Part shown: piece after piece, positions 24,164 through 48,500 of the stretch | Layout of the letters: each line of letters opens with the position of its first letter | Position numbering within the stretch: the stretch's first letter is position 1 | DNA from: Dehalococcoidales bacterium | Lineage (GTDB): Bacteria > Chloroflexota > Dehalococcoidia > Dehalococcoidales > UBA5627 | Length of the DNA: 64,000 nt | Assembly (NCBI GenBank): GCA_034429935.1 | Contig: DAOUFJ010000018.1 | Coordinates: forward strand, 19,862 to 83,861 | Direction: 5' to 3' | Translations under genes and position numbers: made by a program | The notes under the pieces: generated by a model | Seen by the model: only the letters and a program-made list of their open reading frames with translations | Told to the model about the DNA's origin: nothing | The model's database searches: none

Positions 24164-24171
24164 TTAAGTTA

Positions 24172-24798: not shown

Positions 24799-24912
24799 AC
24801 TGATTTGTGAAAATATTCTAGCCAGTAAAAGTCACGAAAATAAGCAGGAGGTTTTTCCAATCCAGTGAATGAAGTGTATTGTATAGTCACACATGTTTAA
24901 GAGGAAGATTAA

Positions 24913-34440: not shown

Positions 34441-34442
34441 TT

Positions 34443-34955
34443 TTATTTATCTCCTTTTAATTTGAATGGTCCGATTCTGAGCAACCTCTCTTCTTCATGC
34501 CCATTTCCTAAAAGGTCACTTGAGAAGCATTCGCTCTCTTTACAGTCGGCTTCGTTTTTTTCAATTATCCTTTGAAATAATGCGCGTGACTCCTTGTTTG
34601 AGGGGGTAATTGTCGTTTCCAGATAACTGAAGCCGTTTTCAGCAGCCAGCAGTATAAGACTATCGAGTAAGCCGGTACCAACCCCGAGTTTGTGAAAATC
34701 TGGGTCAACACCTATCTGCCATATAAAGAGGGTATCGGTGAAATGTGGGTGAGGATATGCCGATACAAAACCGATTGTTTTCTTGTCGGCCTCTGCTACC
34801 AGGCAATATTTATTAAAATGTGAACAAAGTAGCAGGTAGCAATAGCGGGAGTTGAGGTCTAGCGGGGGACAGCTTTTAGCAATTTCGTATACTGCCGGGC
34901 CGTCTGTTTTTACAGCGTTTCGTATGCTGAAATTTATTTTCTTTTTATTATTCAT
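34443..34955 (-). CDS. ectA: L-2,4-diaminobutyrate N-gamma-acetyltransferase
   Basis: 170 aa GNAT (VDPDFHKLGVGTGLL). First gene of an ectA-ectB-ectC arrangement. Confidence 0.85.
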   Translation of the reverse strand: MNNKKKINFSIRNAVKTDGPAVYEIAKSCPPLDLNSRYCYLLLCSHFNKYCLVAEADKKTIGFVSAYPHPHFTDTLFIWQIGVDPDFHKLGVGTGLLDSLILLAAENGFSYLETTITPSNKESRALFQRIIEKNEADCKESECFSSDLLGNGHEEERLLRIGPFKLKGDK

Positions 34956-36123: not shown

Positions 36124-36480
36124 TATATCTCTAATCACTGTCAATTTATAATTGATAGGACGCTTGTAATTGTTCACAATATATACACTATTTATCTTCT
36201 TTTATATAAAAAAACAGGTTATTAATATTGACTGGTCCTATAGAACTATGTTAAGGTAGGTTAAGATGATTAACACAAATCAATATAAATTCCAATATTA
36301 TTTCCCGTAACCGGAAATAATAACTGAATAATAAAACCTCTGATTATTTCAATTATCCATTTCATAATTTACTAATACATTAATCTCTTTTTCAATGCCC
36401 TTATTATTATTCTATCCCGATTAGTTTTTACCTGTTGTCATATTATGCCTATTCTATTTCTCACTATTTTTATAAAAATT

Positions 36481-37686
36481 ATGAATATTAAAATTAAAGC
36501 AGAAAATCTTGTAAAAATTTATGGCGATAAAACCGATAAAGCTCTTGAGCTTTTTAATCAGGGGCTTTCGCGGGCTGAAATCCAAAAAGAAACAGGCCTT
36601 ACAGTAGGTGTAGCCGGAGTCAATTTCGAGATTACCGAAGGGGAAATCTTCGTCGTTATCGGTCTTTCCGGCAGTGGTAAGTCTACCCTGTTACGCTGTA
36701 TCAACGGGCTGCTTATGCCCACCAGCGGTTCACTTTTAGTGGATGGTAAGGCTGTAGAAAAGTTAAATGATAAGGAATTACGCAAACTCCGCGGTGAAAA
36801 GATCAGTATGGTATTTCAGCATTTTGCTTTGCTGCCTAACCGTTCTATTGTCGATAATGTCGCTTTCGGGCTTGAACTGAGAGGTGCTCCGCTGGAAGAA
36901 AGGAGAGAAAAAGCACGGGAAGCGCTGATTAAAGTAGGGCTGGAGGAATGGAACGACAAATTTCCCAATGAACTCAGCGGCGGGATGAAACAGAGGGTGG
37001 GGTTGGCACGTGCCCTGGTTATGGATTCGGATATTATGCTGATGGATGAACCCTTCAGCGCGCTCGATGCACTGATACGCGCGGAAATGCAGGAGGAGTT
37101 GATAACCCTGCAGCGTGAAATTAAAAAGACGGTGGTTTTTGTGACCCATGACCTCGATGAAGCGCTGCGTCTCGGCGATAGGATTGCTATCATGCGTGAC
37201 GGCGCTATCGAACAAATCGGCACTGCCGATGAAATCCTTTCGAATCCGGCAAACGAATATGTCGAGAAATTCCTGCAGGGCATCGATGTGTCCAAGATAC
37301 TGGATGCCAACAGTATTTCAAAGTGGCCGAGGGAAGTCATCCGGGAAACGGAGGGAGTATCCGTTGCATTGCATCGTATGAAAAAGGTGGATACGGATTA
37401 TCTTTTTGTGTTGGGTGCCAGGAATAAACTGGTTGGAATGATACTGCAAGAAGACGTTTTAAGACTGGCTAAGGATAAACAGACAAGTATCAAAGATATT
37501 ATAAAAGAAACGAGTACCGTCCAGTCCGGCACAATTATGAGAGACGTATATCCCGAACTGCGTAATGCCGAGAAAGACCTGGCGGTTGTCGATGATAGCG
37601 GACGTTTCCTGGGAGTGATAACCCACAGTATCCTGCTGATGACACTGGATGAGAGGAAAGGAGGTGACGGGGTTGCCAAATCTTGA
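36481..37686 (+). CDS. opuAA: Glycine betaine/proline betaine ABC transporter ATPase with tandem CBS domains
   Basis: Walker A GLSGSGKST, signature LSGGMKQRVGLARAL, Walker B IMLMDEPFSALD, C-terminal CBS pair. The track ORF starts at 36445; I prefer ATG 36481 (MNIKIKAENLVKIYG). Confidence 0.9.
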   Translation: MNIKIKAENLVKIYGDKTDKALELFNQGLSRAEIQKETGLTVGVAGVNFEITEGEIFVVIGLSGSGKSTLLRCINGLLMPTSGSLLVDGKAVEKLNDKELRKLRGEKISMVFQHFALLPNRSIVDNVAFGLELRGAPLEERREKAREALIKVGLEEWNDKFPNELSGGMKQRVGLARALVMDSDIMLMDEPFSALDALIRAEMQEELITLQREIKKTVVFVTHDLDEALRLGDRIAIMRDGAIEQIGTADEILSNPANEYVEKFLQGIDVSKILDANSISKWPREVIRETEGVSVALHRMKKVDTDYLFVLGARNKLVGMILQEDVLRLAKDKQTSIKDIIKETSTVQSGTIMRDVYPELRNAEKDLAVVDDSGRFLGVITHSILLMTLDERKGGDGVAKS

Positions 37687-38584
37687 AATACCCAAACTGC
37701 CTATAGGCGATGCCATCGAATGGTTTGTCAGGTGGTTGATTGATAATCTTTCGGTGATATTCGATTTCATCAGCGATGTTCTGAAGGCGGTAACAGGGGC
37801 ATTCGGCGATGCATTGTTGGCGATTCCCATTTTAATTTTCATAGTTATCACCGGTTTATTGATATGGTTAGTGACAAGTAAAACCACGGCTGTTTTAAGC
37901 GCTATCGGATTAGCTCTGATATGGAATATCGGTTTATGGCCAGAACTTATAGATACATTCGTTCTTGTCGTTATAGCTGTTGCGATTGCCATTGTAATCG
38001 GTATTCCTACCGGTATCTTGATGACCCGCAGTAAAAAATTCGAAGCAATAATGAGGCCGATTCTGGACTTTATGCAGACAATGCCTCCTTTTGTTTATCT
38101 TATTCCGGCAATACTGCTCTTCGGCACAGGGGTTGTGCCGGCGCTTTTCGCTACTATTATCTTTGCTGCTCCTCCTCCTATACGTCTTACATATCTTGGT
38201 ATTACCCAGGTTCCGTTTGAAATGAAGGAGATGGCTGTAGCTTTCGGAGCGAATGACCGGCAAGTTCTCACCAAAGTCGAGTTGCCGCTTTCTCTTCCCA
38301 GTATAATGGCGGGAGTGAATCAGTGCATTATGCTTGGTATATCGATGGTGGTTATTGCCTCGATGATTGGGTTTGGCGGTCTTGGTTCTGTAGTAGTACG
38401 GGCGCTTAATATGGTTAACTTGTCTCTCGGTTTTGAAAGCGGTTTGGCTATAGTTATACTGGCAATGATTTTGGATAGGGTTAGCCGGAATATCGGTTCC
38501 GGTAAGGAAATTCCTGCCGGCAGAATAACCAGGTATTTAAGAGTGCGACATGAAAAAAGGTCGCTTGATAAACAAAAAACATGA
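37673..38584 (+). CDS. opuAB: Glycine betaine ABC transporter permease
   Basis: BPD_transp_1 permease of ProW/OpuAB type (PIGDAIEWFVRWL..., EMKEMAVAFGANDRQVLTKVELP). The start is uncertain: TTG 37673, 7 nt after GGAGG, is preferred over the track start at 37649. Confidence 0.85.
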   Translation: MPNLEIPKLPIGDAIEWFVRWLIDNLSVIFDFISDVLKAVTGAFGDALLAIPILIFIVITGLLIWLVTSKTTAVLSAIGLALIWNIGLWPELIDTFVLVVIAVAIAIVIGIPTGILMTRSKKFEAIMRPILDFMQTMPPFVYLIPAILLFGTGVVPALFATIIFAAPPPIRLTYLGITQVPFEMKEMAVAFGANDRQVLTKVELPLSLPSIMAGVNQCIMLGISMVVIASMIGFGGLGSVVVRALNMVNLSLGFESGLAIVILAMILDRVSRNIGSGKEIPAGRITRYLRVRHEKRSLDKQKT

Positions 38585-38654
38585 GAAAGGGGGTGGTGCT
38601 TAATAGCACAATTGCCATACAGGCAACAAATACTATTAAACATGGAGGATATAA

Positions 38655-39521
38655 ATGTTAAAGAAAATTCATTATTTTATTTTAGCAATGATAATGATGG
38701 TTGTCATGCTTGCCGGTTCGGCAAGCGGTTGTGCCACGGAAGATAAAACTATTAAGCTTGTCTATGTTCAGTGGTCTTGTGCCGAAGCCGAGACGCATCT
38801 GGCTGAAGTTATACTGAAAGATATGGGCTACGAAGTGGAGAAAAGCATGGTCGGGGCAGGTGTTATGTGGGCTGCTGTAGCCGATGGTGATGAGGATGCT
38901 TTTACTACTGCATGGTTGCCATATACCCATCAATCTTATTGGGAAGAGTATGGCGACGATGTCGTTAAGCTTGGCACTCTTTACGAAGGAGCCAAGATAG
39001 GGCTTGTTGTCCCCAGTTATGTGACCATCAATTCCATAGCTGAAATGAAAGATTATGAAGAAGAATTCGATGGCCGTATTGTAGGTATCGATTCAGGTGC
39101 AGGTATTATGCAAGCTACACTTGAACAAGCTATGCCTGACTATGGTTTGGAAGATTGGGATCTTGTCGAATCCAGTGAAGCTGCAATGATGGCAGAACTT
39201 GAAAGAGCTATCCATGCAGGTGAATGGATTGCTATAACCGGATGGGCTCCGCATTGGATGTTCTTCAATTATGATCTTAAATTCCTTGAAGATCCCGAAG
39301 AAAGTTATGGCGGGAGTGAACAGATCGTTATTATAGGCAGAGAGGGTTTCGAGGAGGATTTTCCCGATGCGGCGGAATTCTTCGCAAACTTCAAGCTTAC
39401 CAGTGCTCAGCTCGGCGAAGTAATGTACATGATAAATGTCGATAAAATGGACCCGTCCGAAGCGGCTCAGAAGTGGATAGATGATAATCCGGATGTCGTT
39501 GCTACCTGGAGAACCGTATAA
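38655..39521 (+). CDS. opuAC: Glycine betaine-binding lipoprotein
   Basis: 288 aa. Signal peptide with lipobox LAGSASGC. OpuAC/ProX-type fold motifs (WSCAEAETH..., TTAWLPYTH). Confidence 0.85.
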   Translation: MLKKIHYFILAMIMMVVMLAGSASGCATEDKTIKLVYVQWSCAEAETHLAEVILKDMGYEVEKSMVGAGVMWAAVADGDEDAFTTAWLPYTHQSYWEEYGDDVVKLGTLYEGAKIGLVVPSYVTINSIAEMKDYEEEFDGRIVGIDSGAGIMQATLEQAMPDYGLEDWDLVESSEAAMMAELERAIHAGEWIAITGWAPHWMFFNYDLKFLEDPEESYGGSEQIVIIGREGFEEDFPDAAEFFANFKLTSAQLGEVMYMINVDKMDPSEAAQKWIDDNPDVVATWRTV

Positions 39522-39597: not shown

Positions 39598-40125
39598 TTA
39601 TCTGGTTTTATGTTGCCTGATATTTGTCATCAATGCCAGTAATCCCTTCATGATTTCCAGCGGGGTGGGGGGATTGCCGGGGATTTTAATATCCACCGGC
39701 AGTATCTTATCTGCGCCGCCGAGCACGGCATAACTGTCTCTCAGGATTCCGCCGTTGCAGGCATCATCGCCGACGGCAATCACGAAGCCGGGCTGCGGCA
39801 TCGCCTCGAAGGTCTTTTTAACAGCCAGAGCCATGTTATGAGTCACGGCTCCGGTAATCACGATAATATCGGCGTGTCTCGGCGACGCTACGAAGGATAT
39901 CCCGTAGCGTTCGATATCATAATACGGGGTGGATAAATTATTCAGTTCTATTTCGGCGGCGTTATCGCTACCCGAATCCAGCTCGCGTATGGCCAGGCTC
40001 CTGCCGAAAACGGAATCGATATTTTGCTTAAGCTCCATCCCCAGCTTCTGGAACTCTGTCTGCTCGGGTTTGAGGTCAGAAGCCAGTTTGTGTCCGAAGA
40101 AATTATGCAGCATTTCAGTTATCAT
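39598..40125 (-). CDS. NuoB/HycG-like 'small subunit' lacking three of the four [4Fe-4S] Cys ligands
   Basis: Start moved to ATG 40125, with GAGGA 6 nt upstream (the track ORF extends to 40245 inside the upstream gene). Conserved SPRHADIIVITGAVT. GSCNGCE is replaced by GSDNAAE (39955-39975) and PGCPP by PGNPP. Only GDDACNGG keeps a Cys. Confidence 0.8.
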   Translation of the reverse strand: MITEMLHNFFGHKLASDLKPEQTEFQKLGMELKQNIDSVFGRSLAIRELDSGSDNAAEIELNNLSTPYYDIERYGISFVASPRHADIIVITGAVTHNMALAVKKTFEAMPQPGFVIAVGDDACNGGILRDSYAVLGGADKILPVDIKIPGNPPTPLEIMKGLLALMTNIRQHKTR

Positions 40126-40139
40126 ATAATCCTCATAAG

Positions 40140-41699
40140 CTATAAGTCGTTCCCGGCATAGGACAGATTCATGCTCTTGTTGATGACAGGGAAATCGGGG
40201 ACAATATTTCCCGGTACGGCATGTTCGATTGCCCACCAGTTGCAAAAGGAAGCCGTGCGAATCTTGTAGCGCTCGATAACTCCGTTTTTCACATATACCC
40301 AGTGCAGGTTTTGTCCCCTGGGTGCTTCCAGCATTGCCAGTGCATAGCCGTCCTTATTCGGACAGTCAGTGCATACTATACCTTCCTGCATCCTGTCTAT
40401 CACGGCTCCGATTATTTCGAGCGAACCGTATATTTCTTCAGTCTTGATGCGGAAACGCGCCAGAACGTCGCCCTCGTGTTTTACGGGTACTGAGAACTTC
40501 AATTTACTGTATATCCCATAGGGATGGTCATGACGCGTATCTATATTCGCTCCCGATGCGCGGGCGATCGGCCCCGTCAGATTCAGCGGTGCGATAAGTT
40601 CGTTTTTTACAATTCCCGTAGTCTCGAAACGGTCTATGACCCAGGAAGAGTTATCGGCTATTTTTACTGCTTCGGCAAGCCTCTTTTTGAAATCGTTCAT
40701 ATATTCTTTCAGTGCTTTCAGTTTGCCGGTCGAAATATCCTGTTTCAAGCCACCCGGTACGATAATCCCTTTTAAAAAGCGTGAGCCTGTAAGCGTGGCG
40801 TTGTAACGCAGTATTTCCTCCCTGAGGATGAATAGGGGACTGGCACCCATGGGGAAAGCGACGTCTACCTGCATTCCCGCCAGGTCTCCCAGGTGAGAAT
40901 AGATGCGCTCCATTTCTAAAAGAACCGTGCGTATCTGCCATGCCCGTTTGGGGATAATGCATTCACTTATCTGTTCGATAGCCATGGCATAGGCGGTGGC
41001 GTTGGCAGCGCTTTCGTCTCCGCTGATGCTTTCAGCTATGGCCACACAATCTGCGGTTTTTTTATTCTCGGCCAGTTTTTCCAGTCCGCGGTGCTTGTAG
41101 AAGTGGCGGATTTCCAGGTTGAAAATGGTTTCCCCCATCACTCCGAAGCGGAAGTGTCCCGGCTCGATAATTCCGGCATGCACCGGCCCGACCGGTATCT
41201 GGTAAACACCTTCTCCATCCACTGCTTTAAATATATATTCCGTACCTTTTTGTTTTTCCGGCCTCAGGTCGAGATGCCTGTTCTTGAACGATTTCAGAAG
41301 TGGGTGAAAGTCATCGGGATAGGCTTCATGCAGTAACAACCGGCGCCTGTCGAAAGCTCCTGCGAACTCGATGCCGAAACCGTCCCTTATCTCGCGTTCG
41401 AAGTAACAGGCGATTGGGAAGATACGGGCAACCGAAACGGCCTGCCTGTCTTTTAACGACAGGTTGAAAGCCAGCAGCTTTGCCGAGTGTTTTTTCTCGA
41501 AGATGTACATCAGGCTGAACCCGCGTTTCCCGAAATCCTCGGCAGCGAACAGGCTTATAAGAATCAGTCCCTTGTTCTTCAAAAAATCGATAATTTCCAT
41601 AAACGAATCGGCACAATCATCTACATAAAAGACGTTTTCTGAATCTTTTAATCTTTTTATATTGAAATGTTTTTCTAAATCTTTTACTAAAGTTTCCAT
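40140..41699 (-). CDS. Fused NuoC-NuoD/HycE-like 'large subunit' lacking all four NiFe-binding Cys
   Basis: 519 aa. NuoC-like N-terminus and NuoD/HycE-like body (GPVHAGIIEPGHFRF, ELERIxSHL-like LEMERIYSHLGDL). The L1 motif position reads ESISGDESAAN (41001-41033). The C-terminal L2 position reads NLSYAGNDL* (40143-40169). Confidence 0.85.
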   Translation of the reverse strand: METLVKDLEKHFNIKRLKDSENVFYVDDCADSFMEIIDFLKNKGLILISLFAAEDFGKRGFSLMYIFEKKHSAKLLAFNLSLKDRQAVSVARIFPIACYFEREIRDGFGIEFAGAFDRRRLLLHEAYPDDFHPLLKSFKNRHLDLRPEKQKGTEYIFKAVDGEGVYQIPVGPVHAGIIEPGHFRFGVMGETIFNLEIRHFYKHRGLEKLAENKKTADCVAIAESISGDESAANATAYAMAIEQISECIIPKRAWQIRTVLLEMERIYSHLGDLAGMQVDVAFPMGASPLFILREEILRYNATLTGSRFLKGIIVPGGLKQDISTGKLKALKEYMNDFKKRLAEAVKIADNSSWVIDRFETTGIVKNELIAPLNLTGPIARASGANIDTRHDHPYGIYSKLKFSVPVKHEGDVLARFRIKTEEIYGSLEIIGAVIDRMQEGIVCTDCPNKDGYALAMLEAPRGQNLHWVYVKNGVIERYKIRTASFCNWWAIEHAVPGNIVPDFPVINKSMNLSYAGNDL

Positions 41700-41713
41700 A
41701 GTATTATCTTAAA

Positions 41714-43189
41714 TCATAATCCGAGATTGACGACTATTTCCCCGAGTGTGCTGTCCAGCCAGGAAGGCATGTATACTCCCAGTACGATTATAACTCCCAG
41801 TGCCAGCAGGATGGACACTTTCATATTTACGGGGGTAACAAAAGGCTGTATCTCCTCATCAGTTTTCTGGCTGAACGTTTTTACCAGAAAAACGGCAAAT
41901 CCGGTTGCTACGAGTAAAATGCAGACCAGCAGTATGATAAATGCCGGAATCGATTCTGAAACGAGAACGCTGAGTACGTTCCACTTGGCTAAAAAGACGG
42001 GGAATAACGGAACACCTATAGCGGCGGCGCTTCCCAGTATAAAACCCCAGCTGGCCAGCGGTTGCAGATTGAAGGCATTTTTAACCGTAAAGTATTTATT
42101 GCTGTGATACTGGCGGTGGAAAATACCGGCACAGAAAAACAGCAGGGATTTTATGAACGAATATGCCATCTGGTGGAAAAGCCCCCAGAACAGGGCAACC
42201 GGAGACCCCAATCCTATCGCTAAAATCAAGAATCCCATGTTTTCGACGCCTGAAAACGCCAGCAGCTTCTTCGTATTCGTTCTGGAAAGGATGCTGAAGG
42301 CGGCGATTATGATGCTGAGCAGCCCGAAAACCAGAAGAAATGTTTGCAGAAAATCCCCGGCACCTGTTTTATGGCCGATGGCGTAAAGCCGGAGTATGGC
42401 ATAGATACCCATGTTCAATACCGTCCCGGAAACGACAGCCACCACCGAAGGCGCACGGACATAGGCCGTCGGTACCCACGTGTGGAAGGGGGCGATGCCG
42501 GCTTTGGCGGCAAAGCCGATGAACAAAAAGATAAAGGCAAAGTTGAACAGCGTGGGGTCTAACGAGGCGGCGGCATTCATCAGTGTCGTCCAGTTGAGGC
42601 TGCCGCCTTCTATGGTTCCCTGGCTCATCGTAAAAAGAATTATGATTCCGATAAACCCGAAAAGCATGGCCGTCGATGCGATAAAGATATACTTCAGGGC
42701 GGCAATGATATTTTCCCTGGCGTTCAGCGTTACTATGAGTACGGCCGTCAGGATGGTGCTCAGTTCGAGGAATATCCAGAGCAGGGCGATGTTGTTGGCG
42801 GACAGTCCCAGGACTATCAGCATCTCCAGCAGGCAGAAGGCCCCGTAAAAAAACTTGTGAACGGAAGTGTCCAGGTCACCGGTTTTTAAAAGGCTGGAGA
42901 CATAACCGCGCGCATATATGGAAGCGAGCAGAAATACGGCCGAAGTAATCAGTATCTCGTACATGGAAAGACGGTCGATGTAGAAGTATTCGTTTTCCAG
43001 GAAATAGACCGGCAGTTCTACCCAGCCGGCCAGCCAGATGCTTATGCCGATGTAGATAAACGCCTGTATGATAACCAGGTTGTTCAGAAAAAAGTTATCC
43101 GGACTCGCAGCGCGTTTGCCGACAATCAGCAGCAGGCAGATTATTATAAACGAAGGAATCGCATATAGAGCTAGAATGCAGTTTTCCAT
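41714..43189 (-). CDS. NuoM/N/HyfF-like antiporter-type membrane subunit
   Basis: 491 aa, about 14 TM. Proton-antiporter family motif region FIGFAAKAGIAPFHTWVPTAYVRAPSVVAVVSGTVLNMGIYA. Confidence 0.85.
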   Translation of the reverse strand: MENCILALYAIPSFIIICLLLIVGKRAASPDNFFLNNLVIIQAFIYIGISIWLAGWVELPVYFLENEYFYIDRLSMYEILITSAVFLLASIYARGYVSSLLKTGDLDTSVHKFFYGAFCLLEMLIVLGLSANNIALLWIFLELSTILTAVLIVTLNARENIIAALKYIFIASTAMLFGFIGIIILFTMSQGTIEGGSLNWTTLMNAAASLDPTLFNFAFIFLFIGFAAKAGIAPFHTWVPTAYVRAPSVVAVVSGTVLNMGIYAILRLYAIGHKTGAGDFLQTFLLVFGLLSIIIAAFSILSRTNTKKLLAFSGVENMGFLILAIGLGSPVALFWGLFHQMAYSFIKSLLFFCAGIFHRQYHSNKYFTVKNAFNLQPLASWGFILGSAAAIGVPLFPVFLAKWNVLSVLVSESIPAFIILLVCILLVATGFAVFLVKTFSQKTDEEIQPFVTPVNMKVSILLALGVIIVLGVYMPSWLDSTLGEIVVNLGL

Positions 43190-43867
43190 CTAATCCTCGA
43201 ATTTCAACCCGAATTTCACCAGCCTGCGGTGGAAGGATTCGATGCTCGAATCGATACCGAAAGCCATGACCGTAGATATAAGTATCAATATCAAGAGGTC
43301 GATAACTATCAGAACTTCTATGATAAAAGGCATCTCTGCCATAAACAGGCTGAAGAGCAATACACCGTTTTCCATGGTCAGGTATCCGATAATCTTCGTA
43401 ATAACCTTCTTGCGGCTGAATATGGCCGTCATCCCCATGAGTACCAGCGAAACCCCGATAACCCCTCCCAGCAGGAAAAGCCGGTCTTCGAAAAGAGAAC
43501 TGGCAAACCTGGTAAAGAAGAAGTAGACGATAAATATCAGTACGGCGCTGATTATAATAGAGCTGACCGGGGACAGGTAATAGAACTGGATATCCCTTTT
43601 TACCGGCATATTTTTCAATATTTTATTCAGCAGGAACGGGATAAGCACTACTTTGACGGCTATCGTTAACAGTGCTATCCACAGCAGGTTCAGTGTGCCG
43701 TGTCCGATAAAAAGGACGATAGCCATGACTGCCAGTATCAGCGATTGGACGGCATAGATATTGAAAAGGGAAACAAGCGATCGCTGGGTCATAATCAGAG
43801 CTGCCGTTCCCAGAATAAGAACGAATAATGCCTGGATGATATCGTTTAAAGCAATCATATTTATCAT
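43190..43867 (-). CDS. HyfE-like small membrane subunit
   Basis: 225 aa, about 7 TM. Position and size match HyfE/EhrC-type subunits. Overlaps the upstream gene by 4 nt. Confidence 0.65.
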   Translation of the reverse strand: MINMIALNDIIQALFVLILGTAALIMTQRSLVSLFNIYAVQSLILAVMAIVLFIGHGTLNLLWIALLTIAVKVVLIPFLLNKILKNMPVKRDIQFYYLSPVSSIIISAVLIFIVYFFFTRFASSLFEDRLFLLGGVIGVSLVLMGMTAIFSRKKVITKIIGYLTMENGVLLFSLFMAEMPFIIEVLIVIDLLILILISTVMAFGIDSSIESFHRRLVKFGLKFED

Positions 43868-44814
43868 GACAGTAACTCAAATACTATAGTAACGAAGGAT
43901 AAAAATAAGGCCATCATAAAGAAATCCGGCAGTCGGAAGAAGCGTATCTTGGCAAAGAAGGATTCGAATATGCCGACTGCTATTGCCAGTATGATGGCTT
44001 TAAGCATGAAAGAGCCTATCGATATGAGAATTCCCGTGAGCGTCATTTCGGTTGCCAGTCCCCATGGGAAAAGGATGTTGATAAGCAGCGCCATCAATAT
44101 TAACTGCTTGACGCCGTAAGATAATTCCATCAAAGCCAGCTTCGGCCCCGTTTGTTCCAGTATCATGGTTTCGTGAATCATGGTAAGCTCGAGATGGGTT
44201 TCCGGGTTGTCTACCGGAATCCTTGCAGTTTCCACGATGAGGATAATGAACAGGGAACAGGCGACCATGAAGAGCGTCGGATATTGCAGGACGGAGCCGC
44301 CGAGCACTGTCCCGAACATCTCCGGGATACTGGTGGTCTTCAAGATAAAAGCCATGGCGGCGCATGCCATCAGCGTAGTCGGTTCTATAATCGAGGCAAT
44401 CGTCATCTCACGCGAACTGCCCATGCCGCCGAAGGTGCTGCCGGCATCCAGCCCTGAAAGCGCCATAAAGAAGCGGGCGCATACCATCAGGTAAAGGAAC
44501 AGGATGATATTGCCGAAGCCGCTTTCAGGCAGCGGAATAAAAACAACCGGAACGAATATAGATGCAGCCAGCAAAAAGGAGATATTCAGATAGGGGCTGA
44601 TGCGCATTATAAAAGAGGAATTGTCGGAATATACAATCTCTTTTTTGCAGAGTTTATAAAGCTGCAGGTAGCTCTGGAATAACGGTGTTCCGATGCGTCC
44701 CTGGCACATTGCCTTCACCTTCTTTATCAGGCTGACGAGCAGCGGCGCAAATAAAAACACGAAAACCGTGTTCAGGATGGTATACAGTATTATATTCCAG
44801 TTCATAGCCACCAC
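43864..44814 (-). CDS. NuoH/HycD/HyfC-like membrane subunit
   Basis: 316 aa, about 8 TM. ETARIPVDNPETHLELTMIHE matches the NuoH/HycD conserved acidic loop. Confidence 0.8.
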   Translation of the reverse strand: MVAMNWNIILYTILNTVFVFLFAPLLVSLIKKVKAMCQGRIGTPLFQSYLQLYKLCKKEIVYSDNSSFIMRISPYLNISFLLAASIFVPVVFIPLPESGFGNIILFLYLMVCARFFMALSGLDAGSTFGGMGSSREMTIASIIEPTTLMACAAMAFILKTTSIPEMFGTVLGGSVLQYPTLFMVACSLFIILIVETARIPVDNPETHLELTMIHETMILEQTGPKLALMELSYGVKQLILMALLINILFPWGLATEMTLTGILISIGSFMLKAIILAIAVGIFESFFAKIRFFRLPDFFMMALFLSFVTIVFELLS

Positions 44815-46739
44815 CCTGCAGTTACCAGCAGAATCACGATGGTAGCGAAGGCATACAGGATAAAGGTTTCCAGGTCCTTGTTGTGCTTTTGTGAAATGAA
44901 TCCGGCGATTGCCATAAAGAAGTGAGCGATTGGCATATAGATACGTTCCTCGAAAAACCTGAAGGTGGTAATCTTGGCCTCGGTACGCATGGTGATGCTG
45001 TTTTCCTTATCGAAGTACTCTTTGCGGTTGTTTTTTTTGGTGCGGAAAATAAACGAGAATATGGTAACAATCGGTTCCGAGAAGCCGGTAGCTGTATATT
45101 CCATGTTCCCGGTTTGCCTGCCGATGCCGCAGCCCCATGTTTCACTGATTCTGACAGGCACATGGCTCAATTTCAGCAATCCGGCAAACAGCAGGATTAT
45201 AAACAGCAAAACAATGCTCAGCGGGAGCATGTTGGGTATCGGCAAATCGAACCCGATGCCTTTTATTATCTGGAATGAGAATACCCCCAGCACAACACAC
45301 AGAATAGCCAGTACCGACGGCCCTGCCAGCATTCCGAATGGTGCTTCTTTTGCCCTTTCCGCCTCTTCGGAACGCGGTCTGGCCAAAAATACGATGCCGA
45401 ATGCTTTTACAAAGCAGGCGGCAGCAAGGGCGCTCATGAAGGCGAATGCCGCCAGTCCGATAACCATTATTATTTCAATTAAAGCGTTATTCAATGCGAA
45501 CGATTGCAGGTATGCCTGGAAAATCATTATTTCGCTGGCAAAGCCGTTCAAAGGCGGCAGGGCAGAGATGGCGCAGGAGCCGATAAGAAACAGGTAAGCC
45601 GTTACGGGCATGGTTTTCACCAGACCGCCCATCTCTTCGATATTGCGTGTTCCGGTAGCCTGTACCACCGAACCGGCGGTCATAAACAGCAGGCTCTTGA
45701 AGATCGCGTGGTTCAATGTATGGAACAGGGCGCCTACCAGGCTTAAATTTGCCTGTGTTTCCAGCCCGTAATGGGCAAAGATGACGTATAGACCCAGTCC
45801 GGTAACGATAATGCCTATATTTTCTATGCTGTGATAGGCCAGCAGTTTCTTGAAATCATGCTCTTTGAGGGCGTATATTACACCCAGGACGGCCGAAACG
45901 GTTCCGAAAGCTAAGAGTACGAAACCCCACCATAATTCGGGTTCGAGCACATCGAAAGCGAAACGGCAAAGTCCATATATGGCGACTTTGAGCATTACTC
46001 CCGACATCAAAGCAGATACGTTGGACGGCGCTGCCGAGTGGGCATACGGCAGCCATTTATGAAAGGGGATGACACCCGCCTTGGTTCCGAACCCGACAAA
46101 AAATGCCAGGAAAACGAAGCTCTTGGCGACTTGCGGCAGAGTGTCCGCAGCCTGCATATCGAAAGTCCCCGTATATTTGTATATCAATAAGAAAGCGATG
46201 AAAAGGAATAAAGTGCTGAACTGCGTCATCACGAAGTAAAAGATGCCCGCTTTTTGAGTCTCCGGTTTTTCTCTTTCATACATTACCAGAAGGAATGAAG
46301 ATATCGACATTATCTCCCAGAAAAACAGGAAACAGAACATATTGGCTGAGGCGACAACCATCAGCATCGACAGGATGAAAAGAGGCAGCAAGGCAGTCGA
46401 TATCTGGCGTCTTTTCTCGCTGCCGCTGTGTTCGATATAGCTGAAGGAGTAGATGGTGCAACAGAAGCCGACAATGCCGACCAGGGCGATGAAGAAGCTG
46501 GATAACCTGTCCATGTAAATGTTGAATACGATGTCAGTGGTAAGTGAATAGATAGTCTGGCTGTAGTCTGCGCCGGTGAAAAAACAGATGAGCGCGGCTG
46601 TGGTTATGCAGGCTAATCCCGATAGCAGTATTAATAAAGCGGTACGGCGGCTGGTTTTGCCGGGCTTAACTATGGTAACCAGCGGCATGATAAAAGCCAG
46701 CAGCAGGAGCATAGCTCCCGCTTCAAAAAGTGTTTCCAT
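44802..46739 (-). CDS. NuoL/HyfB-like antiporter-type membrane subunit
   Basis: 645 aa. FGTKAGVIPFHKWLPYAHSAAPSNVSALMSGVMLKVAIYG is a typical NuoL/M/N motif. First gene of the operon. Confidence 0.85.
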   Translation of the reverse strand: METLFEAGAMLLLLAFIMPLVTIVKPGKTSRRTALLILLSGLACITTAALICFFTGADYSQTIYSLTTDIVFNIYMDRLSSFFIALVGIVGFCCTIYSFSYIEHSGSEKRRQISTALLPLFILSMLMVVASANMFCFLFFWEIMSISSFLLVMYEREKPETQKAGIFYFVMTQFSTLFLFIAFLLIYKYTGTFDMQAADTLPQVAKSFVFLAFFVGFGTKAGVIPFHKWLPYAHSAAPSNVSALMSGVMLKVAIYGLCRFAFDVLEPELWWGFVLLAFGTVSAVLGVIYALKEHDFKKLLAYHSIENIGIIVTGLGLYVIFAHYGLETQANLSLVGALFHTLNHAIFKSLLFMTAGSVVQATGTRNIEEMGGLVKTMPVTAYLFLIGSCAISALPPLNGFASEIMIFQAYLQSFALNNALIEIIMVIGLAAFAFMSALAAACFVKAFGIVFLARPRSEEAERAKEAPFGMLAGPSVLAILCVVLGVFSFQIIKGIGFDLPIPNMLPLSIVLLFIILLFAGLLKLSHVPVRISETWGCGIGRQTGNMEYTATGFSEPIVTIFSFIFRTKKNNRKEYFDKENSITMRTEAKITTFRFFEERIYMPIAHFFMAIAGFISQKHNKDLETFILYAFATIVILLVTAGWWL

Positions 46740-47024
46740 ATCAGGATTGGTATATCTTTAAGCCTTAGAAGGGAAAAAAATAAGGAAACCCCTTCTTAAG
46801 GTCTCCTTCTAAATTAATATATAAATGTTTTATTTAAACGACTGGGATTAATTCTATTCCAAGTTTGTTTTGTTGTCAAACAGGCTATATATGATTTCTT
46901 TAAAAGAGTGTTAAAACCTCTTTACAGAGACTTAACATGCCATCTGTTATATTAGGATATATTGAACGGATTATTCTCGAGAATAAGTCAATAATTAATA
47001 TTTCGGGTTACCGGTGTATATCAA

Positions 47025-47819
47025 ATGACTAAAATAAGAAGTAATAGAAATATCGTTGTCCATCAAATAGATAACAGCAGGGTGGAAGAGACAAGGCGTA
47101 TAGAACGCAAGTTCTTCATATCTCCCGATAAAATCGATTATGCCCTGGCTATATTGAAGCAAACCTGTCTCCCCGACAGTGAAAATTCCGATGAATGGAT
47201 AAACAGCCTCTATTTCGATAGCGATGACCTGGAACAGCATGAAAAGTCTTCTTCCGGGGACAGCCGTAAGGATAAGGTGCGCATCCGCTGGTATTATAAA
47301 CTTGGCGATTACCAGTATTCCGTTCCCGTATATATCGAGCACAAAACGCGTGAAGGATTCGTCGGAACCAAGCAGCGCAAAAAGGTAGTTGCTCCGCTTG
47401 AAAATCTGGAAATGCAGAATCTCGTGAAAGGTATCGTTCCTGAGTCCCAGCTTATAGATACACTATCCGCTTTTGGTTATTTCCCTTCAAGACGCATCAG
47501 TCCGGTTATCGTCATATCGTATTACCGCCATCATTTTACGGATTTAATGAGCGGCATGCGGGTCAGCCTGGATTACAATATCGCCTCCACCATGATCGAC
47601 CGGTCATTCGGCTACGGCGATAAGGATTTGAAGCTGCCGGGCGGCATTATCGAAATCAAGGGAACAAAAATGGAACTGCCGGAGACGCTGTGCCGGTTGA
47701 AACAGCTGGATATAGACTGGACGCGTTTTTCCAAGTATTCGTCATGCCTGGAGGCTCACATGGCGGAACCTCATTCGCTTTTGAGGCTCTGGCCCTCGGG
47801 AAGAAATCCATTAAGTTAA
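47025..47819 (+). CDS. VTC-domain protein (CYTH-like, polyphosphate-polymerase-type tunnel domain)
   Basis: 264 aa. Starts its fold with RIERKFFIS and continues INSLYFDSDDL...KVRIRWY...VYIEHKTRE...GIIEIKG, as in bacterial VTC (PF09359-type) proteins. Recognition is from memory, not searched. Confidence 0.7.
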   Translation: MTKIRSNRNIVVHQIDNSRVEETRRIERKFFISPDKIDYALAILKQTCLPDSENSDEWINSLYFDSDDLEQHEKSSSGDSRKDKVRIRWYYKLGDYQYSVPVYIEHKTREGFVGTKQRKKVVAPLENLEMQNLVKGIVPESQLIDTLSAFGYFPSRRISPVIVISYYRHHFTDLMSGMRVSLDYNIASTMIDRSFGYGDKDLKLPGGIIEIKGTKMELPETLCRLKQLDIDWTRFSKYSSCLEAHMAEPHSLLRLWPSGRNPLS

Positions 47820-47846
47820 TATTTTAAAAGGAAAGGGATTAATATT

Positions 47847-48500
47847 ATGTTCGACTGGTTATTTTCATCTTCGATAGATATAACCGAAGCGCTTATTTCT
47901 ATCGGTTTTTCGCTGGCCGCTTCAATTGTTGCCTATCTCATGTATCAGTTATTTTACGGTTCGAAGAACATCGGGGCGGGGGTGCACCGCACTTTCCTTA
48001 TCGGCGGACCGGCCATCACCACCCTGTTCCTGGGGATTCAGACTTCGATTCCGCTGTCTCTGGGTTTGCTAGGTGCGCTCTCTTTCGTGCGTTTCAGGAC
48101 GCCCGTCAAGGACCCGGCCGAAATAGGCTTTCTGCTGCTGCTTATCGCATCCTCAATCGGTGCGGCAACCAGCAACTACCTGATTACCATTCTGCTTTTT
48201 GTCGTTGTCTTCATCGCTCTGGGTGCGCAGATGCTGCTGCGCAAAAAGTTCTCCGGGTTCGGCAGGGGGCAGTTGATGATATCCCTCGATAAGGCTGCTT
48301 ATCCCTCCCTGGATAAGAATTTGAATGAGTTTTTAAGCAAGAAGCTGGGGGGCGTCAAGCTGGAGAACATGTCTGCAATAGAAGGTAGGGTCAACCTGCA
48401 CTATATATACAGGAAGCAGGACGATTATAACTGGGGGGCTTTTACCGGCGAGCTCGACCGTCTGGCCGGTTCCGCAAAGCTGGAGCTATATATCAACTAG
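47847..48500 (+). CDS. DUF4956-family membrane protein (usual partner of bacterial VTC proteins)
   Basis: 217 aa, 4 TM. LSFVRFRTPVKDPAEIGFLLLLIASSIGAA matches my memory of the DUF4956 core motif. Confidence 0.65.
   Translation: MFDWLFSSSIDITEALISIGFSLAASIVAYLMYQLFYGSKNIGAGVHRTFLIGGPAITTLFLGIQTSIPLSLGLLGALSFVRFRTPVKDPAEIGFLLLLIASSIGAATSNYLITILLFVVVFIALGAQMLLRKKFSGFGRGQLMISLDKAAYPSLDKNLNEFLSKKLGGVKLENMSAIEGRVNLHYIYRKQDDYNWGAFTGELDRLAGSAKLELYIN

What the first reader, a model, noticed from the sequence alone, without database searches (positions are those of the whole stretch)
39598..46739. Hyf/Ech-type six-gene membrane complex with every NiFe ligand and three of four small-subunit Fe-S ligands substituted (Ehr-like, apparently cofactor-less)
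The gene order is that of a group-4 energy-converting hydrogenase: NuoL/HyfB-like 645 aa, NuoH/HycD-like 316 aa, HyfE-like 225 aa, NuoM/N/HyfF-like 491 aa, fused NuoC-NuoD/HycE-like 519 aa, and NuoB/HycG-like about 175 aa.

In the 'large subunit', the N-terminal Ni-Fe motif C[GS][ILV]C[AGNS]xxH reads S-G-D-E-S-A-A-N (ESISGDESAAN, nt 41001-41033). The C-terminal motif [DE][PL]Cx[AGST]Cx[DE][RL] reads N-L-S-Y-A-G-N-D-L (the last nine codons, nt 40143-40169). It aligns position for position, but both Cys are replaced, so all four NiFe Cys are gone.

In the 'small subunit', the [4Fe-4S] ligands GSCNGC(D/E) become GSDNAAE (nt 39955-39975) and PGCPP becomes PGNPP. One Cys remains (GDDACNGG).

The operon has no NuoI/HycF-type 2x[4Fe-4S] subunit, no formate dehydrogenase and no ferredoxin-like partner.

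Cys-less large subunits are the hallmark of the functionally uncharacterised 'Ehr' (energy-converting-hydrogenase-related) complexes known from comparative genomics. Additional loss of the small-subunit cluster would leave an antiporter-type ion-translocating module whose peripheral arm cannot transfer electrons by any known route. What drives it, or what it couples, is open.
Basis: partly seen in the sequence, partly recalled or inferred. Interest (0 to 1): 0.75.

Follow-up and report, generated by a model that had tools for sequence, protein, structure and literature searches.

The report
Hydrogenase-like membrane complex lacking all cofactors
This six-gene operon encodes a membrane complex built like an energy-converting hydrogenase or mini complex I, but with every metal-cluster ligand replaced, and it belongs to a conserved, strongly selected clade in Dehalococcoidia and methanogens, so genes routinely annotated as "Hyc/Ni,Fe-hydrogenase III" here cannot make hydrogen or carry electrons and most likely move ions by another drive.

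Summary
Six tightly packed minus-strand genes (39598-46739) encode HyfB-like, NuoH/HycD-like, HyfE-like, HyfF-like, fused NuoC-NuoD/HycE-like and NuoB/HycG-like subunits. Against E. coli HycE, all four NiFe cysteines are replaced (S226, E229, S513, G516). In the small subunit all four canonical [4Fe-4S] ligand columns are replaced (D54, A57, D121, N151), not three. The surviving Cys123 matches a non-ligand Cys of the "CAC" motif.

This is not decay. The substitutions recur in the 120 closest homologues of each subunit, and dN/dS is 0.06-0.10.

The operon belongs to the known Ehr family. It sits in a monophyletic sub-clade (Dehalococcoidia, Methanosarcina, Methanoregula, Methanospirillum, Bathyarchaeia, Altiarchaeales) nested among Ehr complexes that keep the small-subunit cluster, often with a fused 2x[4Fe-4S] domain.

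The ion-channel residues of the membrane arm are intact, and no partner gene is conserved across genera.

Best reading: a redox-independent ion-translocating complex (Mrp-like cation/proton exchange, or ion-gradient-coupled non-redox chemistry at the remodelled pocket). The mechanism is inferred, not shown. It is a new variant of a known kind, of moderate-to-high interest.

The parts
44802..46739 (-). Subunit A: HyfB/HycC/NuoL/MrpA-like antiporter-type membrane subunit, 645 aa
   Evidence: Pfam Proton_antipo_M 9e-61. NCBIfam NF006418 at 851 bits, above the cutoff of 794. Best solved relatives are HycC 7z0s_C (7e-77), MbhH 6cfw_H (5e-67) and MrpA 7qru_A (2e-53). Channel residues E142, K220, H227, K251, H340, H344, K348 and E403 are invariant or nearly so in all tiers.
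43864..44805 (-). Subunit B: NuoH/HycD-like membrane subunit, 313 aa (the ORF can be extended to the GTG at 44814)
   Evidence: Pfam NADHdh 3e-30. HycD 7z0s_D 2e-39, MbhM 7e-22. The start at 44805 matches the gene calls on identical contigs. Acidic residues E144, E195, D202, E209, E215 and E284 are invariant in the cofactor-less clade, in other Ehr and in true hydrogenases.
43190..43867 (-). Subunit C: HyfE-like (NuoK-type) small membrane subunit, 225 aa
   Evidence: NCBIfam NF008556 'hydrogenase 4 membrane subunit' at 5e-17, below its cutoff. No Pfam hit and no solved relative. A homologue in L089 has a weak Oxidored_q2 (NuoK) hit. K72, E166, E184 and D190 are conserved across tiers.
41714..43189 (-). 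Subunit D: HyfF/NuoM-N/MrpD-like antiporter-type membrane subunit, 491 aa
   Evidence: Pfam Proton_antipo_M 8e-44. NF006427 at 534 bits, above the cutoff of 511. MbsH 6u8y_H 3e-28, MbhH 1e-26. E142, K229, H236, E316 and K347 are conserved. The TM12 position is Lys402 in 14 of 15 clade members but Glu in 52 of 53 other Ehr.
40140..41699 (-). Subunit L: fused NuoC-NuoD / HycE-like 'large subunit', 519 aa, with no NiFe ligands
   Evidence: Pfam Complex1_30kDa + Complex1_49kDa + a NiFeSe_Hases fragment. HycE 7z0s_E 1e-64. dN/dS is 0.066 against an 81%-identical relative.
41001..41033 (-). Former N-terminal NiFe motif, now ESISGDESAAN (S226 = Cys1, E229 = Cys2; D228 is Ehr-specific)
   Evidence: Aligned under HycE DRVCGICGFAH. 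S226, G227, D228, E229 and N233 are invariant in the clade. D228 and D279 are invariant in all 59 other Ehr sequences but are A/V and G in true hydrogenases.
40143..40169 (-). Former C-terminal NiFe motif, now NLSYAGNDL at the protein's end (S513 = Cys3, G516 = Cys4)
   Evidence: Aligned under HycE DPCYSC. An NLSYAG[TN]D[LM]-type C-terminus with no Cys at the two ligand columns is present in all 120 closest homologues, with six single-residue variants.
39598..40125 (-). Subunit S: NuoB/HycG-like 'small subunit', 175 aa, with no [4Fe-4S] ligands (GAGGA ribosome-binding site 6 nt upstream of the ATG)
   Evidence: Pfam Oxidored_q6 2e-25. NF005012 NuoB subfamily at 128 bits, above the cutoff of 116. 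The start site was read and matches the gene calls on identical contigs. dN/dS is 0.062.
39955..39966 (-). Small-subunit ligand columns 1 and 2: D54 and A57 (GSDNAAE in place of GSCNGCE)
   Evidence: D54 is invariant in the clade. Position 57 varies (A/T/V/P).
39757..39765 (-). Small-subunit ligand column 3: D121, followed by A122 and the retained non-ligand Cys123 (GDDAC in place of GxCAC)
   Evidence: C123 is present in 100% of the clade and 63% of the other sequences (Ehr and the five true hydrogenases) at the same column.
39673..39675 (-). Small-subunit ligand column 4: N151 (PGNPP in place of PGCPP)
46851..46879 (-). Likely promoter of the operon (TTGACA-17-TAGAAT), about 110 nt upstream of the first start codon
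   Evidence: 11 of 12 consensus matches. Both hexamers are invariant in the orthologous intergenic regions of two relatives at 81% and 66% protein identity. Function is not shown.

Best explanation
The operon encodes a six-subunit Ehr (energy-converting-hydrogenase-related) complex. It belongs to a distinct, monophyletic sub-clade that has lost every redox cofactor site of the ancestral group-4 hydrogenase: the NiFe centre, the proximal [4Fe-4S] cluster and the NuoI-type 2x[4Fe-4S] domain.

Shown:
- The architecture is that of Hyf/FHL: two antiporter-like subunits, a NuoH-like and a HyfE/NuoK-like subunit, and a NuoC-D plus NuoB cap.
- All ligand columns are substituted.
- The charged channel residues of the membrane arm and the acidic residues of the NuoH-like subunit are conserved as in true hydrogenases.
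- All subunits, including the cap, are under strong purifying selection.

Inferred:
- With no electron path, the complex works without redox chemistry, as an ion translocator.
- It most likely exchanges protons for another cation across the membrane, Mrp-like.
- The retained cap, with its conserved polar and acidic pocket (L: S226, D228, E229, D279, E179; S: D54, D120, D121, N151, K147), would serve as the cytoplasmic entry or gate to the NuoH-type channel rather than as a catalytic redox site.

My confidence by step: an Ehr member of a cluster-less sub-clade, about 0.9; no canonical electron transfer, about 0.8; ion translocation as the function, about 0.5; specifically secondary cation/proton antiport, about 0.3. 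The overall figure of 0.5 refers to 'redox-independent ion-translocating Ehr variant'.
For: Conservation of the substitutions: all 120 closest large subunits and the 120 closest small subunits, where 88 of 121 have one Cys.

Gene order A-B-C-D-L-S is conserved in nearly all of the 80 species-level loci (two have S upstream of A; others are cut by contig ends), and more than 598 genomes hit.

The clade is monophyletic at 100/100 in a neighbour-joining tree. It is nested among Ehr that keep the cluster, and a sister lineage has also lost it, with different residues.

Strict clade-specific switches are concentrated at the three ligand columns of S, while the rest of the complex matches cluster-bearing Ehr.

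No conserved Cys motif exists in any of the six subunits.

Channel residues are conserved in A, B, C and D.

dN/dS is 0.055-0.10 for A, C, D, L and S.

The genes overlap or abut, and a promoter is conserved in relatives.

No partner gene is shared across genera.

A and D are homologous to MrpA and MrpD (7qru_A 2e-53).
Against: - There is no functional, expression or structural evidence. Ion translocation and antiport are inferred from homology alone.
- A plain antiporter would not obviously need a roughly 700-residue cap under selection as strong as that on the membrane subunits.
- The pocket residues of L are invariant across all Ehr, which suggests a ligand or a reaction rather than a passive lid.
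- The acidic replacements D54 and D121 are not shared by the sister cluster-less lineage, which has S/P and G there. They may be mere packing substitutes.
- The genomic association with osmolyte genes holds only within this Dehalococcoidales lineage and not in Dehalogenimonas or the archaea.
- Sequence alone cannot exclude a non-canonical cofactor or an unlinked partner.
- The AF2 single-chain models were too poor to examine the pocket.
Confidence: 0.5

Rival explanations
1. Ion-gradient-coupled non-redox chemistry. The remodelled pocket between L and S binds a substrate or metal ion, and an acid-base reaction or binding event there is coupled to ion flow through the membrane arm. Candidates are CO2/bicarbonate interconversion, a decarboxylation, or cation binding and sensing. 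The analogies are NDH-1 Cup modules and DabAB, where antiporter-like subunits power CO2 hydration (my own knowledge, not tested here).
For: - Pocket residues are invariant: S226, G227, D228, E229 and N233 in L, and the proton-relay Glu179 of IEPGHFRF is conserved in all tiers.
- D228 and D279 are Ehr-specific (A/V and G in true hydrogenases).
- The cap is under selection as strong as the membrane arm.
- A beta-carbonic-anhydrase-like ORF lies just upstream in three Methanoregula/Methanospirillum loci.
Against: - No catalytic motif was identified.
- The carbonic-anhydrase neighbour is confined to one archaeal order.
- The sister cluster-less clade lacks the acidic small-subunit residues.
- There is no structure or ligand prediction.
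Confidence: 0.2
2. The complex is still a redox enzyme. Electrons would enter through a non-canonical cofactor (an Asp/Asn/Cys-ligated metal site, or a flavin in the flavodoxin-like NuoB fold) or through a partner protein encoded elsewhere, such as a formate dehydrogenase as proposed for other Ehr.
For: - One Cys (C123 in S) and C486 in L are invariant in the clade.
- Asp-ligated clusters exist in other proteins (my own knowledge).
- FDH-Ehr pairing has been proposed for Margulisbacteria and Saganbacteria (PMC6349859).
- All Ehr subunits rise on formate in Geobacter (PMC7894505).
Against: - All four ligand columns are replaced, Cys2 by a variable residue.
- The sister lineage has S/P, V, G and N at these columns, which cannot ligate a cluster.
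- The NuoI-type domain present in other Ehr is absent.
- No dehydrogenase or ferredoxin is a conserved neighbour in 17 clade loci.
- The Geobacter and Margulisbacteria proposals concern other Ehr. The Margulisbacteria small subunit is a NuoI-NuoB fusion; the cluster status of Geobacter EhrS was not examined here.
Confidence: 0.12
3. A catalytically dead paralogue kept for a structural or regulatory role, for example a scaffold or modulator of another respiratory complex, or a sensor of membrane potential or pH, without net ion transport of its own.
For: - The strong conservation has no identifiable chemistry behind it.
- Organisms with this clade (methanogens; Dehalococcoides per PMC8516407) are described as having bona fide Ech/Fpo/Nuo complexes (my own knowledge and that paper; not tested here).
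Against: - Every canonical channel residue in A, B and D is retained, which is hard to explain if no ions move.
- The operon is self-contained and moves between bacteria and archaea as a six-gene unit.
Confidence: 0.08
4. A decaying pseudogene set left over from a hydrogenase operon.
For: All cofactor ligands are lost. One relative (L085) has a frameshifted B gene.
Against: - The window has six intact ORFs with coupled starts.
- dN/dS is 0.055-0.10.
- Identical substitutions recur in more than 120 homologues from different phyla and domains.
- The L085 frameshift is in a single contig whose name suggests a long-read assembly (my inference), and its other five genes are intact.
Confidence: 0.02

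Closest known systems
Ehr (energy-converting / Ech-hydrogenase-related) complexes, e.g. Geobacter sulfurreducens EhrA-S (GSU0739-45) and the Ehr of Nitrospira, ammonia-oxidising archaea, Sulfobacillus and Margulisbacteria
   Same: - The large subunit is homologous to group-4 hydrogenases but lacks the NiFe cysteines.
- The gene set is the same: HyfB, NuoH, HyfE, HyfF, NuoC-D, NuoB.
- The SGD-x and NLSY-x-G-x-D motifs are shared.
- The window's clade nests inside these sequences in the tree (PMC4378227, PMC10284858, PMC10432482, PMC6349859).
- Function is unknown in all of them.
   Different: Typical Ehr keep the four small-subunit Cys, and many carry a fused NuoI-like 2x[4Fe-4S] domain (Supplementary Note 4 of PMC6349859). 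The window's clade has neither. It also has Lys instead of Glu at the TM12 position of subunit D.
E. coli formate hydrogenlyase complexes (Hyc, solved as 7Z0S; Hyf/hydrogenase-4)
   Same: They are the best solved relatives of L, A and B (HycE 1e-64, HycC 7e-77, HycD 2e-39); for S, HycG (4e-29) ranks just behind complex I PSST (5e-31). The HyfB/HyfE/HyfF-type membrane subunits match, and the NuoC-NuoD fusion is as in HycE.
   Different: There are no NiFe site, no small-subunit cluster, no HycF/HycB Fe-S subunits and no FdhF. L ends at the motif, with no C-terminal extension for a maturation protease. Subunit A keeps the TM7 Lys that HycC lacks.
Pyrococcus furiosus Mbh and Mbs/Mbx (6CFW, 6U8Y)
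   Same: Mbh and Mbs are homologous to A, D, L and S, and Mbh also to B. Mbs/Mbx is the precedent for a hydrogenase-derived complex that no longer makes H2.
   Different: Mbh and Mbs retain three [4Fe-4S] clusters and are ferredoxin-driven. They carry a full Mrp-type sodium module, which is absent here.
Mrp multisubunit cation/proton antiporter (7QRU, 6Z16, 7D3U)
   Same: A and D are homologous to MrpA and MrpD and keep the TM5 Glu, TM7 Lys, TM8 Lys (Asn in D), TM11 His/Lys and TM12 Lys/Glu. Mrp is the known example of this machinery running without redox chemistry, so it is the closest functional analogy.
   Different: There are no MrpB, E, F or G subunits. Instead there is a NuoH-like subunit and a complex-I-type cytoplasmic cap, which Mrp lacks.
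Respiratory complex I (Nuo/Nqo)
   Same: The NuoB, C, D, H and L/M/N homologues and the L-shaped modular logic are shared.
   Different: There is no N2 cluster. The quinone-site Tyr87 and His38 columns of T. thermophilus Nqo4 are Gly227 and Ile178. NuoA, I and J and the NuoE/F/G input module are absent.

Membership tests
Group 4 membrane-bound [NiFe]-hydrogenase (Hyc/Hyf/Ech/Mbh) | N-terminal large-subunit motif RxCGxCxxxH with two NiFe-ligating Cys | tested here: not met
   The window reads ESISGDESAAN; the Cys columns are S226 and E229. The same holds in the 120 closest homologues.
Group 4 membrane-bound [NiFe]-hydrogenase (Hyc/Hyf/Ech/Mbh) | C-terminal large-subunit motif [DE][PL]CxxCxx[HR] with two NiFe-ligating Cys | tested here: not met
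   The window reads NLSYAGNDL; the Cys columns are S513 and G516.
Group 4 membrane-bound [NiFe]-hydrogenase (Hyc/Hyf/Ech/Mbh) | Small subunit with four Cys ligating the proximal [4Fe-4S] cluster | tested here: not met
   The columns are D54, A57, D121 and N151.
Group 4 membrane-bound [NiFe]-hydrogenase (Hyc/Hyf/Ech/Mbh) | Homologous subunit set (large, small, NuoH-like, antiporter-like) in one operon | tested here: met
   True hydrogenases with the same six-gene order exist (L051, L056, L064, L066, L083).
Ehr (energy-converting hydrogenase-related complex) | Large subunit homologous to group 4 hydrogenases but lacking the NiFe-binding Cys | tested here: met
   The definition is as used in PMC6349859, PMC10284858 and PMC4378227.
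Ehr (energy-converting hydrogenase-related complex) | Synteny with HyfB-, NuoH-, HyfE-, HyfF- and NuoB-like genes | tested here: met
   The gene set is described in PMC4378227 and in Supplementary Note 4 of PMC6349859.
Ehr (energy-converting hydrogenase-related complex) | Groups phylogenetically with Cys-less large subunits of taxa whose complexes are called Ehr in the literature (Nitrospira, ammonia-oxidising archaea, Firmicutes) | tested here: met
   In the neighbour-joining tree the window's clade is nested inside these, with true hydrogenases basal. This is distance-based only; no maximum-likelihood tree was made.
Ehr (energy-converting hydrogenase-related complex) | NuoB-like (often NuoI-NuoB fused) small subunit that carries Fe-S clusters. 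This is typical rather than formally defining. | tested here: not met
   No ligands and no NuoI domain are present. This is what sets the sub-clade apart.
Respiratory complex I | NuoD quinone-site Tyr and His, and the NuoB N2 cluster | tested here: not met
   The Nqo4 Tyr87 column is G227, the His38 column is I178, and there are no N2 ligands.
Respiratory complex I | At least eleven core subunits, including NuoA, I, J and K | tested here: not met
   The operon has only six genes, and no NuoA, I or J is present in it.
Mrp cation/proton antiporter | MrpA- and MrpD-type antiporter-like subunits with conserved Glu/Lys channel residues | tested here: met
Mrp cation/proton antiporter | Small subunits MrpB, C, E, F and G | tested here: not met
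   No such genes are in the operon, and subunit C has only a HyfE/NuoK-type resemblance.
Mrp cation/proton antiporter | Measured cation/proton exchange | not testable with these tools
   This needs transport assays.
Formate hydrogenlyase | Associated formate dehydrogenase (FdhF) and Fe-S subunits HycB/HycF | tested here: not met
   They are absent from the operon and its flanks in the window and in clade relatives. The only molybdopterin oxidoreductase in the window lies 16 kb away on the other strand, in a separate cluster.

The most novel reading that the evidence does not exclude
The cofactor-free cap is not a relic but a repurposed active site. The conserved carboxylate-rich pocket where NiFe and the proximal cluster used to sit would bind an ion or small substrate. 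A non-redox event there (proton or cation binding, CO2/bicarbonate chemistry or similar) would be mechanically coupled to the antiporter-like subunits. That would make this a new class of complex-I-type energy converter that runs entirely without electrons. It would also imply that the long-range coupling machinery of complex I and hydrogenases can be driven by charge or binding changes alone.
Probability: 0.2. Interest if true: 0.85.

Novelty: new variant of a known kind. Interest (0 to 1): 0.6.

Why it matters
1. Annotation. These genes are labelled "formate hydrogenlyase subunit 5", "Ni,Fe-hydrogenase III large/small subunit" or "HycE" in public records. "Hyc" is still counted among the [NiFe]-hydrogenases of Dehalococcoides in recent papers (PMC8516407, PMC4771760). 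Members of this clade can neither bind NiFe nor pass electrons, so H2-metabolism inferences drawn from them in Dehalococcoidia, methanogens and Bathyarchaeia are wrong.

2. Mechanism. This is a natural, strongly selected complex-I/hydrogenase-type machine with an intact membrane arm and an intact but cofactor-less cap. It offers a clean system for asking what the cap contributes to ion translocation apart from redox chemistry.

3. Evolution. The loci form a graded series: a true hydrogenase with three clusters; Ehr with three clusters; Ehr with a degenerate ferredoxin domain; Ehr with one cluster; and Ehr with none. This suggests that the still-unknown Ehr function became progressively independent of electron transfer. 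That constrains hypotheses for the whole Ehr family.

Tried and rejected
- **Pseudogene decay.** Rejected by dN/dS of 0.055-0.10 and family-wide conservation.
- **A shifted alignment hiding the ligands.** Rejected. HMMER alignments to HycE, MbhL, Nqo4 and PSST, and MAFFT alignments to true hydrogenases of the same architecture, all give the same columns.
- **A conserved partner gene.** All-against-all comparison of flanking ORFs in 17 clade loci found only genus-level synteny. Synteny with OpuA/FMN-reductase holds only in the window's own lineage.
- **A riboswitch in the 5' leader that might reveal the ligand or ion.** There was no Rfam match above noise, and the leader fold is no better than shuffles.
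- **AlphaFold2 single-chain models.** S gave mean pLDDT 44. L gave 68, with the interface loops and C-terminus below 50. Both were too poor to use and no coordinates are returned, so no fold search was run.
- **Literature.** Coppi 2005 and Marreiros et al. 2013, the primary Ehr descriptions, are not held. I therefore could not check whether they already noted cluster-less small subunits. Two searches were swamped by "electronic health record" hits. Searches on Dehalococcoides/Dehalogenimonas Hyc and on DET1570-1575 found no discussion of the missing ligands and no expression data.
- **Dehalococcoides mccartyi Hyc.** Its membership of this clade was not tested directly. It is only suggested by matching NCBI product names in PMC8516407, which are the names of the models the window's A and D pass, and by my recollection that DET1570-1575 have the same gene order.

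Full report
**What is in the window.** Six ORFs on the minus strand run from 46739 down to 39598. Their junctions are tight. A and B overlap by 4 nt if B starts at the ATG at 44805, as called on identical contigs. B and C overlap by 4 nt, C and D abut, and 14-nt spacers separate D from L and L from S. S is preceded by a GAGGA ribosome-binding site.

Pfam and NCBIfam assign the products as follows:
- A: an antiporter-like subunit (Proton_antipo_M; NF006418 at 851 bits, cutoff 794).
- B: NuoH/HycD-like (NADHdh).
- C: HyfE-like (NF008556, below cutoff).
- D: a second antiporter-like subunit (NF006427 at 534 bits, cutoff 511).
- L: a NuoC-NuoD fusion with a residual NiFeSe_Hases match.
- S: NuoB-like (Oxidored_q6).

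The best solved relatives are the E. coli formate hydrogenlyase subunits: HycE 1e-64, HycC 7e-77, HycD 2e-39 and HycG 4e-29. Pyrococcus Mbh, Mrp and complex I follow.

**The ligand columns.** In the HMMER alignment to HycE, ESISGDESAAN lies under DRVCGICGFAH, and the C-terminal NLSYAG lies under DPCYSC. All four NiFe cysteines are therefore replaced, by S226, E229, S513 and G516. The protein stops where complex I NuoD stops, with no protease-cleaved extension.

The small subunit was aligned to complex I PSST and to genuine hydrogenase small subunits from loci with the same gene order. The columns are:
- GSCNxCE becomes GSDNAAE (D54, A57).
- GxCACSGG becomes GDDACNGG (D121).
- PGCPP becomes PGNPP (N151).

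The one remaining cysteine, C123, aligns with the second Cys of the CAC motif. That Cys is present in 63% of the other sequences (Ehr and the five true hydrogenases) and is not the canonical ligand. So four of four ligand columns are replaced, not three of four. No conserved Cys motif exists in any of the six subunits of the clade.

**Not an accident of this genome.**
- The 120 closest large subunits (56-97% identity) come from Dehalococcoidales, Dehalogenimonas, Bathyarchaeia and others. All carry E-x-[ILV]-S-G-D-E-[ST]-x-x-N and an NLSYAG[TN]D[LM]-type C-terminus with no Cys at the ligand columns, with six single-residue variants.
- The 120 closest small subunits carry GSDN, GDDAC and (118 of 121) GNPP at 90% or more, and 88 of 121 have exactly one Cys.
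- Against an 81%-identical relative, dN/dS is 0.10 (A), 0.07 (C), 0.055 (D), 0.066 (L) and 0.062 (S). The cofactor-less cap is thus as constrained as the membrane arm.
- A near-consensus promoter (TTGACA-17-TAGAAT, 46879-46851) is invariant in the orthologous intergenic region of relatives at 81% and 66% protein identity.

**Where it sits among relatives.** A scan of one genome per species found at least 598 genomes with a relative. The best 80 loci nearly all show the order A-B-C-D-L-S. Three groups appear.
- *The window's clade.* These are loci L004-L019, at 51-58% identity, from Dehalogenimonas, Dehalococcoidales, Altiarchaeales, Bathyarchaeia, Methanosarcina, Methanoregula, Methanospirillum and Moduliflexus. 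They lack both the NiFe and the Fe-S ligands.
- *Other Cys-less large subunits.* These are at 38-47% identity, from Methanoperedens, Methanomassiliicoccus, Thaumarchaeota, Nitrospira, Bacillota and Acidobacteria, the taxa whose complexes the literature calls Ehr. Their small subunits keep all four Cys.
- *Five true hydrogenases.* They have the same gene order and intact RxCGxC and ELCYSC motifs.

Among 78 small subunits, 20 carry an N-terminal 2x[4Fe-4S] ferredoxin domain, at least 7 carry a degenerate one, about 34 have only the core cluster, and 17 have none. The NuoI-NuoB fusion in Ehr is also described in Supplementary Note 4 of PMC6349859.

In a neighbour-joining tree the window's clade is monophyletic at 100/100. 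Its sister lineage (67/100) has also lost the ligands, but with non-acidic residues: GSPNDVE or GSSNDVE, GDGAC and PGNPP. The next outgroups keep the cluster or the Fer4 fusion. The loss is therefore a single derived event inside Ehr. This rests on a distance tree only.

Strict clade-specific residue switches are most concentrated in S (0.023 per residue against 0.003-0.012 elsewhere), at C->D54, C->D121, C->N151 and A->N63; D has six scattered switches. The rest of the complex matches cluster-bearing Ehr closely, with 98 shared conserved positions in L and 58 in B.

**The membrane arm looks functional.**
- Subunit A keeps the TM5 Glu (E142), the TM7 Lys (K220, which HycC lacks), H227, K251, H340, H344, K348 and the TM12 Glu (E403).
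- Subunit D keeps E142, K229, H236, E316 and K347.
- Subunit B keeps E144, E195, D202, H207, E209, E215 and E284.
- Subunit C keeps K72, E166, E184 and D190.

All of these are equally conserved in the cofactor-less clade, in other Ehr and in the true hydrogenases. In L, the Glu of IEPGHFRF (E179) is universal; from my own knowledge this is the proton-relay Glu of group 4 hydrogenases. D228 and D279 are Ehr-specific, being A/V and G in hydrogenases. One clade-specific change affects the ion path: the TM12 residue of D is Lys in 14 of 15 members but Glu in 52 of 53 other Ehr and in the sister lineage.

**Context.** No gene is shared next to the operon across genera. Within the window's Dehalococcoidales lineage the operon is flanked by an OpuA-type betaine transporter and an FMN reductase on one side and a trypsin-like protease on the other. 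The window is rich in osmoadaptation genes: ectA, ectB, a lysine-2,3-aminomutase, and VTC/DUF4956. This fits a role in ion homeostasis but is lineage-specific. The Pfam-scanned ORFs of the window include no Hyp/HycI maturation gene, no NuoI and no FdhF. An RnfC-like gene and an unrelated molybdopterin oxidoreductase cluster lie far away.

**How it most likely works.** The following is shown: an FHL/Hyf-type six-subunit architecture, no canonical redox ligand anywhere, an intact set of channel residues, and strong selection on all subunits. The following is inferred. With no electron path the complex cannot be a hydrogenase or an oxidoreductase of any known type. The conserved antiporter-type machinery implies that ions still move. 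The simplest drive is the ion gradient itself, meaning Mrp-like cation/proton exchange. The cap would then form the cytoplasmic vestibule or gate of the NuoH-type channel.

The main weakness is that a passive lid should not need such strict conservation of the former active-site pocket. A rival reading, in which a non-redox binding or acid-base event in that pocket is coupled to ion flow, therefore remains open. A beta-carbonic-anhydrase-like ORF upstream in three Methanomicrobiales loci is a weak hint in that direction. A non-canonical cofactor or an unlinked partner cannot be excluded from sequence. It is disfavoured, however, by the sister lineage, whose replacement residues cannot ligate metal.

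**Comparison with what is known.** Ehr complexes are described as group-4-like complexes that lack the NiFe cysteines and have unknown function (PMC6349859, PMC10284858, PMC10432482, PMC4378227, PMC7304191, PMC4758237). In Geobacter all Ehr subunits rise on formate (PMC7894505). None of the papers I could read mentions loss of the small-subunit cluster. The two primary papers (Coppi 2005; Marreiros et al. 2013) are not held, so prior description cannot be ruled out.

The organohalide-respiration literature still lists "Hyc" among the [NiFe]-hydrogenases of Dehalococcoides (PMC8516407, PMC4771760). The Dehalogenimonas "HycE" proteins belong to the window's clade. D. mccartyi Hyc was not tested directly.

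**Verdict.** It is a new variant of a known kind: an Ehr sub-clade that has shed its last redox cofactor while keeping the whole machine under selection. It is widespread in anaerobic archaea and Dehalococcoidia. Interest is 0.6.

Noticed in passing
L005:4865-12031 and L005:15799-20825 (Altiarchaeales MAG): There are two tandem copies of the cofactor-less six-gene operon on one contig. The second copy is cut by the end of the locus.
   Followed up: no
L012:3038-3619, L016:3132-3713, L018:3813-4463: A beta-carbonic-anhydrase-like ORF (CxDxR signature) lies 0.5-1.2 kb upstream of subunit A on the opposite strand in Methanoregula, Methanoregulaceae and Methanospirillum loci. It could be order-level synteny or a functional hint.
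   Followed up: partly
window 46739-46850 (minus strand), hairpin 46782-46808: The 5' leader between the conserved promoter and the first start codon contains a hairpin followed by a T-run. The hairpin is nearly identical in a relative at 81% protein identity. It has no Rfam match, and its folding energy is no better than shuffles.
   Followed up: yes
window 33145-34955, 36445-39521, 11317-14625, 47025-48500: The neighbourhood is dense in osmoadaptation and ion-related genes: ectA and ectB (with ectC on the identical contig), an OpuA-type betaine ABC transporter, a lysine-2,3-aminomutase with two ATP-grasp ligases, and a VTC-domain/DUF4956 pair. This suggests a salt-adapted Dehalococcoidales organism.
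   Followed up: partly
window 20382-25455 (+) and 690-2018 (-): There is a 987-aa molybdopterin oxidoreductase with an AhtL-like N-terminal domain, followed by a 4Fe-4S dicluster subunit and an FMN_bind protein. An RnfC-like gene sits at the window edge. These are unlinked to the operon and were not examined as partners.
   Followed up: no
L085:6894-7836: The NuoH-like gene of the 81%-identical relative is frameshifted (4 in-frame stops on the expected frame; the gene caller gives 194 aa). The other five genes are intact. The contig name suggests a long-read assembly, so an indel error is likely.
   Followed up: partly
L088:1-10114 (NCBI GCA_053535595.1): In the sister cluster-less lineage the NuoH-like and HyfE-like subunits are fused into one 545-aa protein. 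The operon lies next to a V-type ATPase subunit I gene.
   Followed up: no
L051, L056, L064, L066, L083: These loci (Thermincola, Peptococcaceae, Clostridiales, Planctomycetota, Bacillota) hold true [NiFe]-hydrogenases with intact RxCGxC and ELCYSC motifs. They share the exact six-gene Ehr order. In at least four of the five, excluding L066, the small subunit is a NuoI-NuoB fusion. They branch at the base of the Ehr radiation in the tree.
   Followed up: partly
L023:12762-17403, L027:9140-13772, L042:13846-18497 (Methanomassiliicoccales): A second, much more distant antiporter-like, small-subunit and large-subunit set lies a few kb downstream of the Ehr operon. Its identity was not examined.
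   Followed up: no
window subunit D residue K402 (nt 41984-41986) and homologues: The TM12 key residue of the distal antiporter-like subunit is Lys in the window's clade but Glu in other Ehr, in the sister cluster-less lineage and in four of the five true hydrogenases. This is a charge reversal in the ion path that is specific to this clade.
   Followed up: yes
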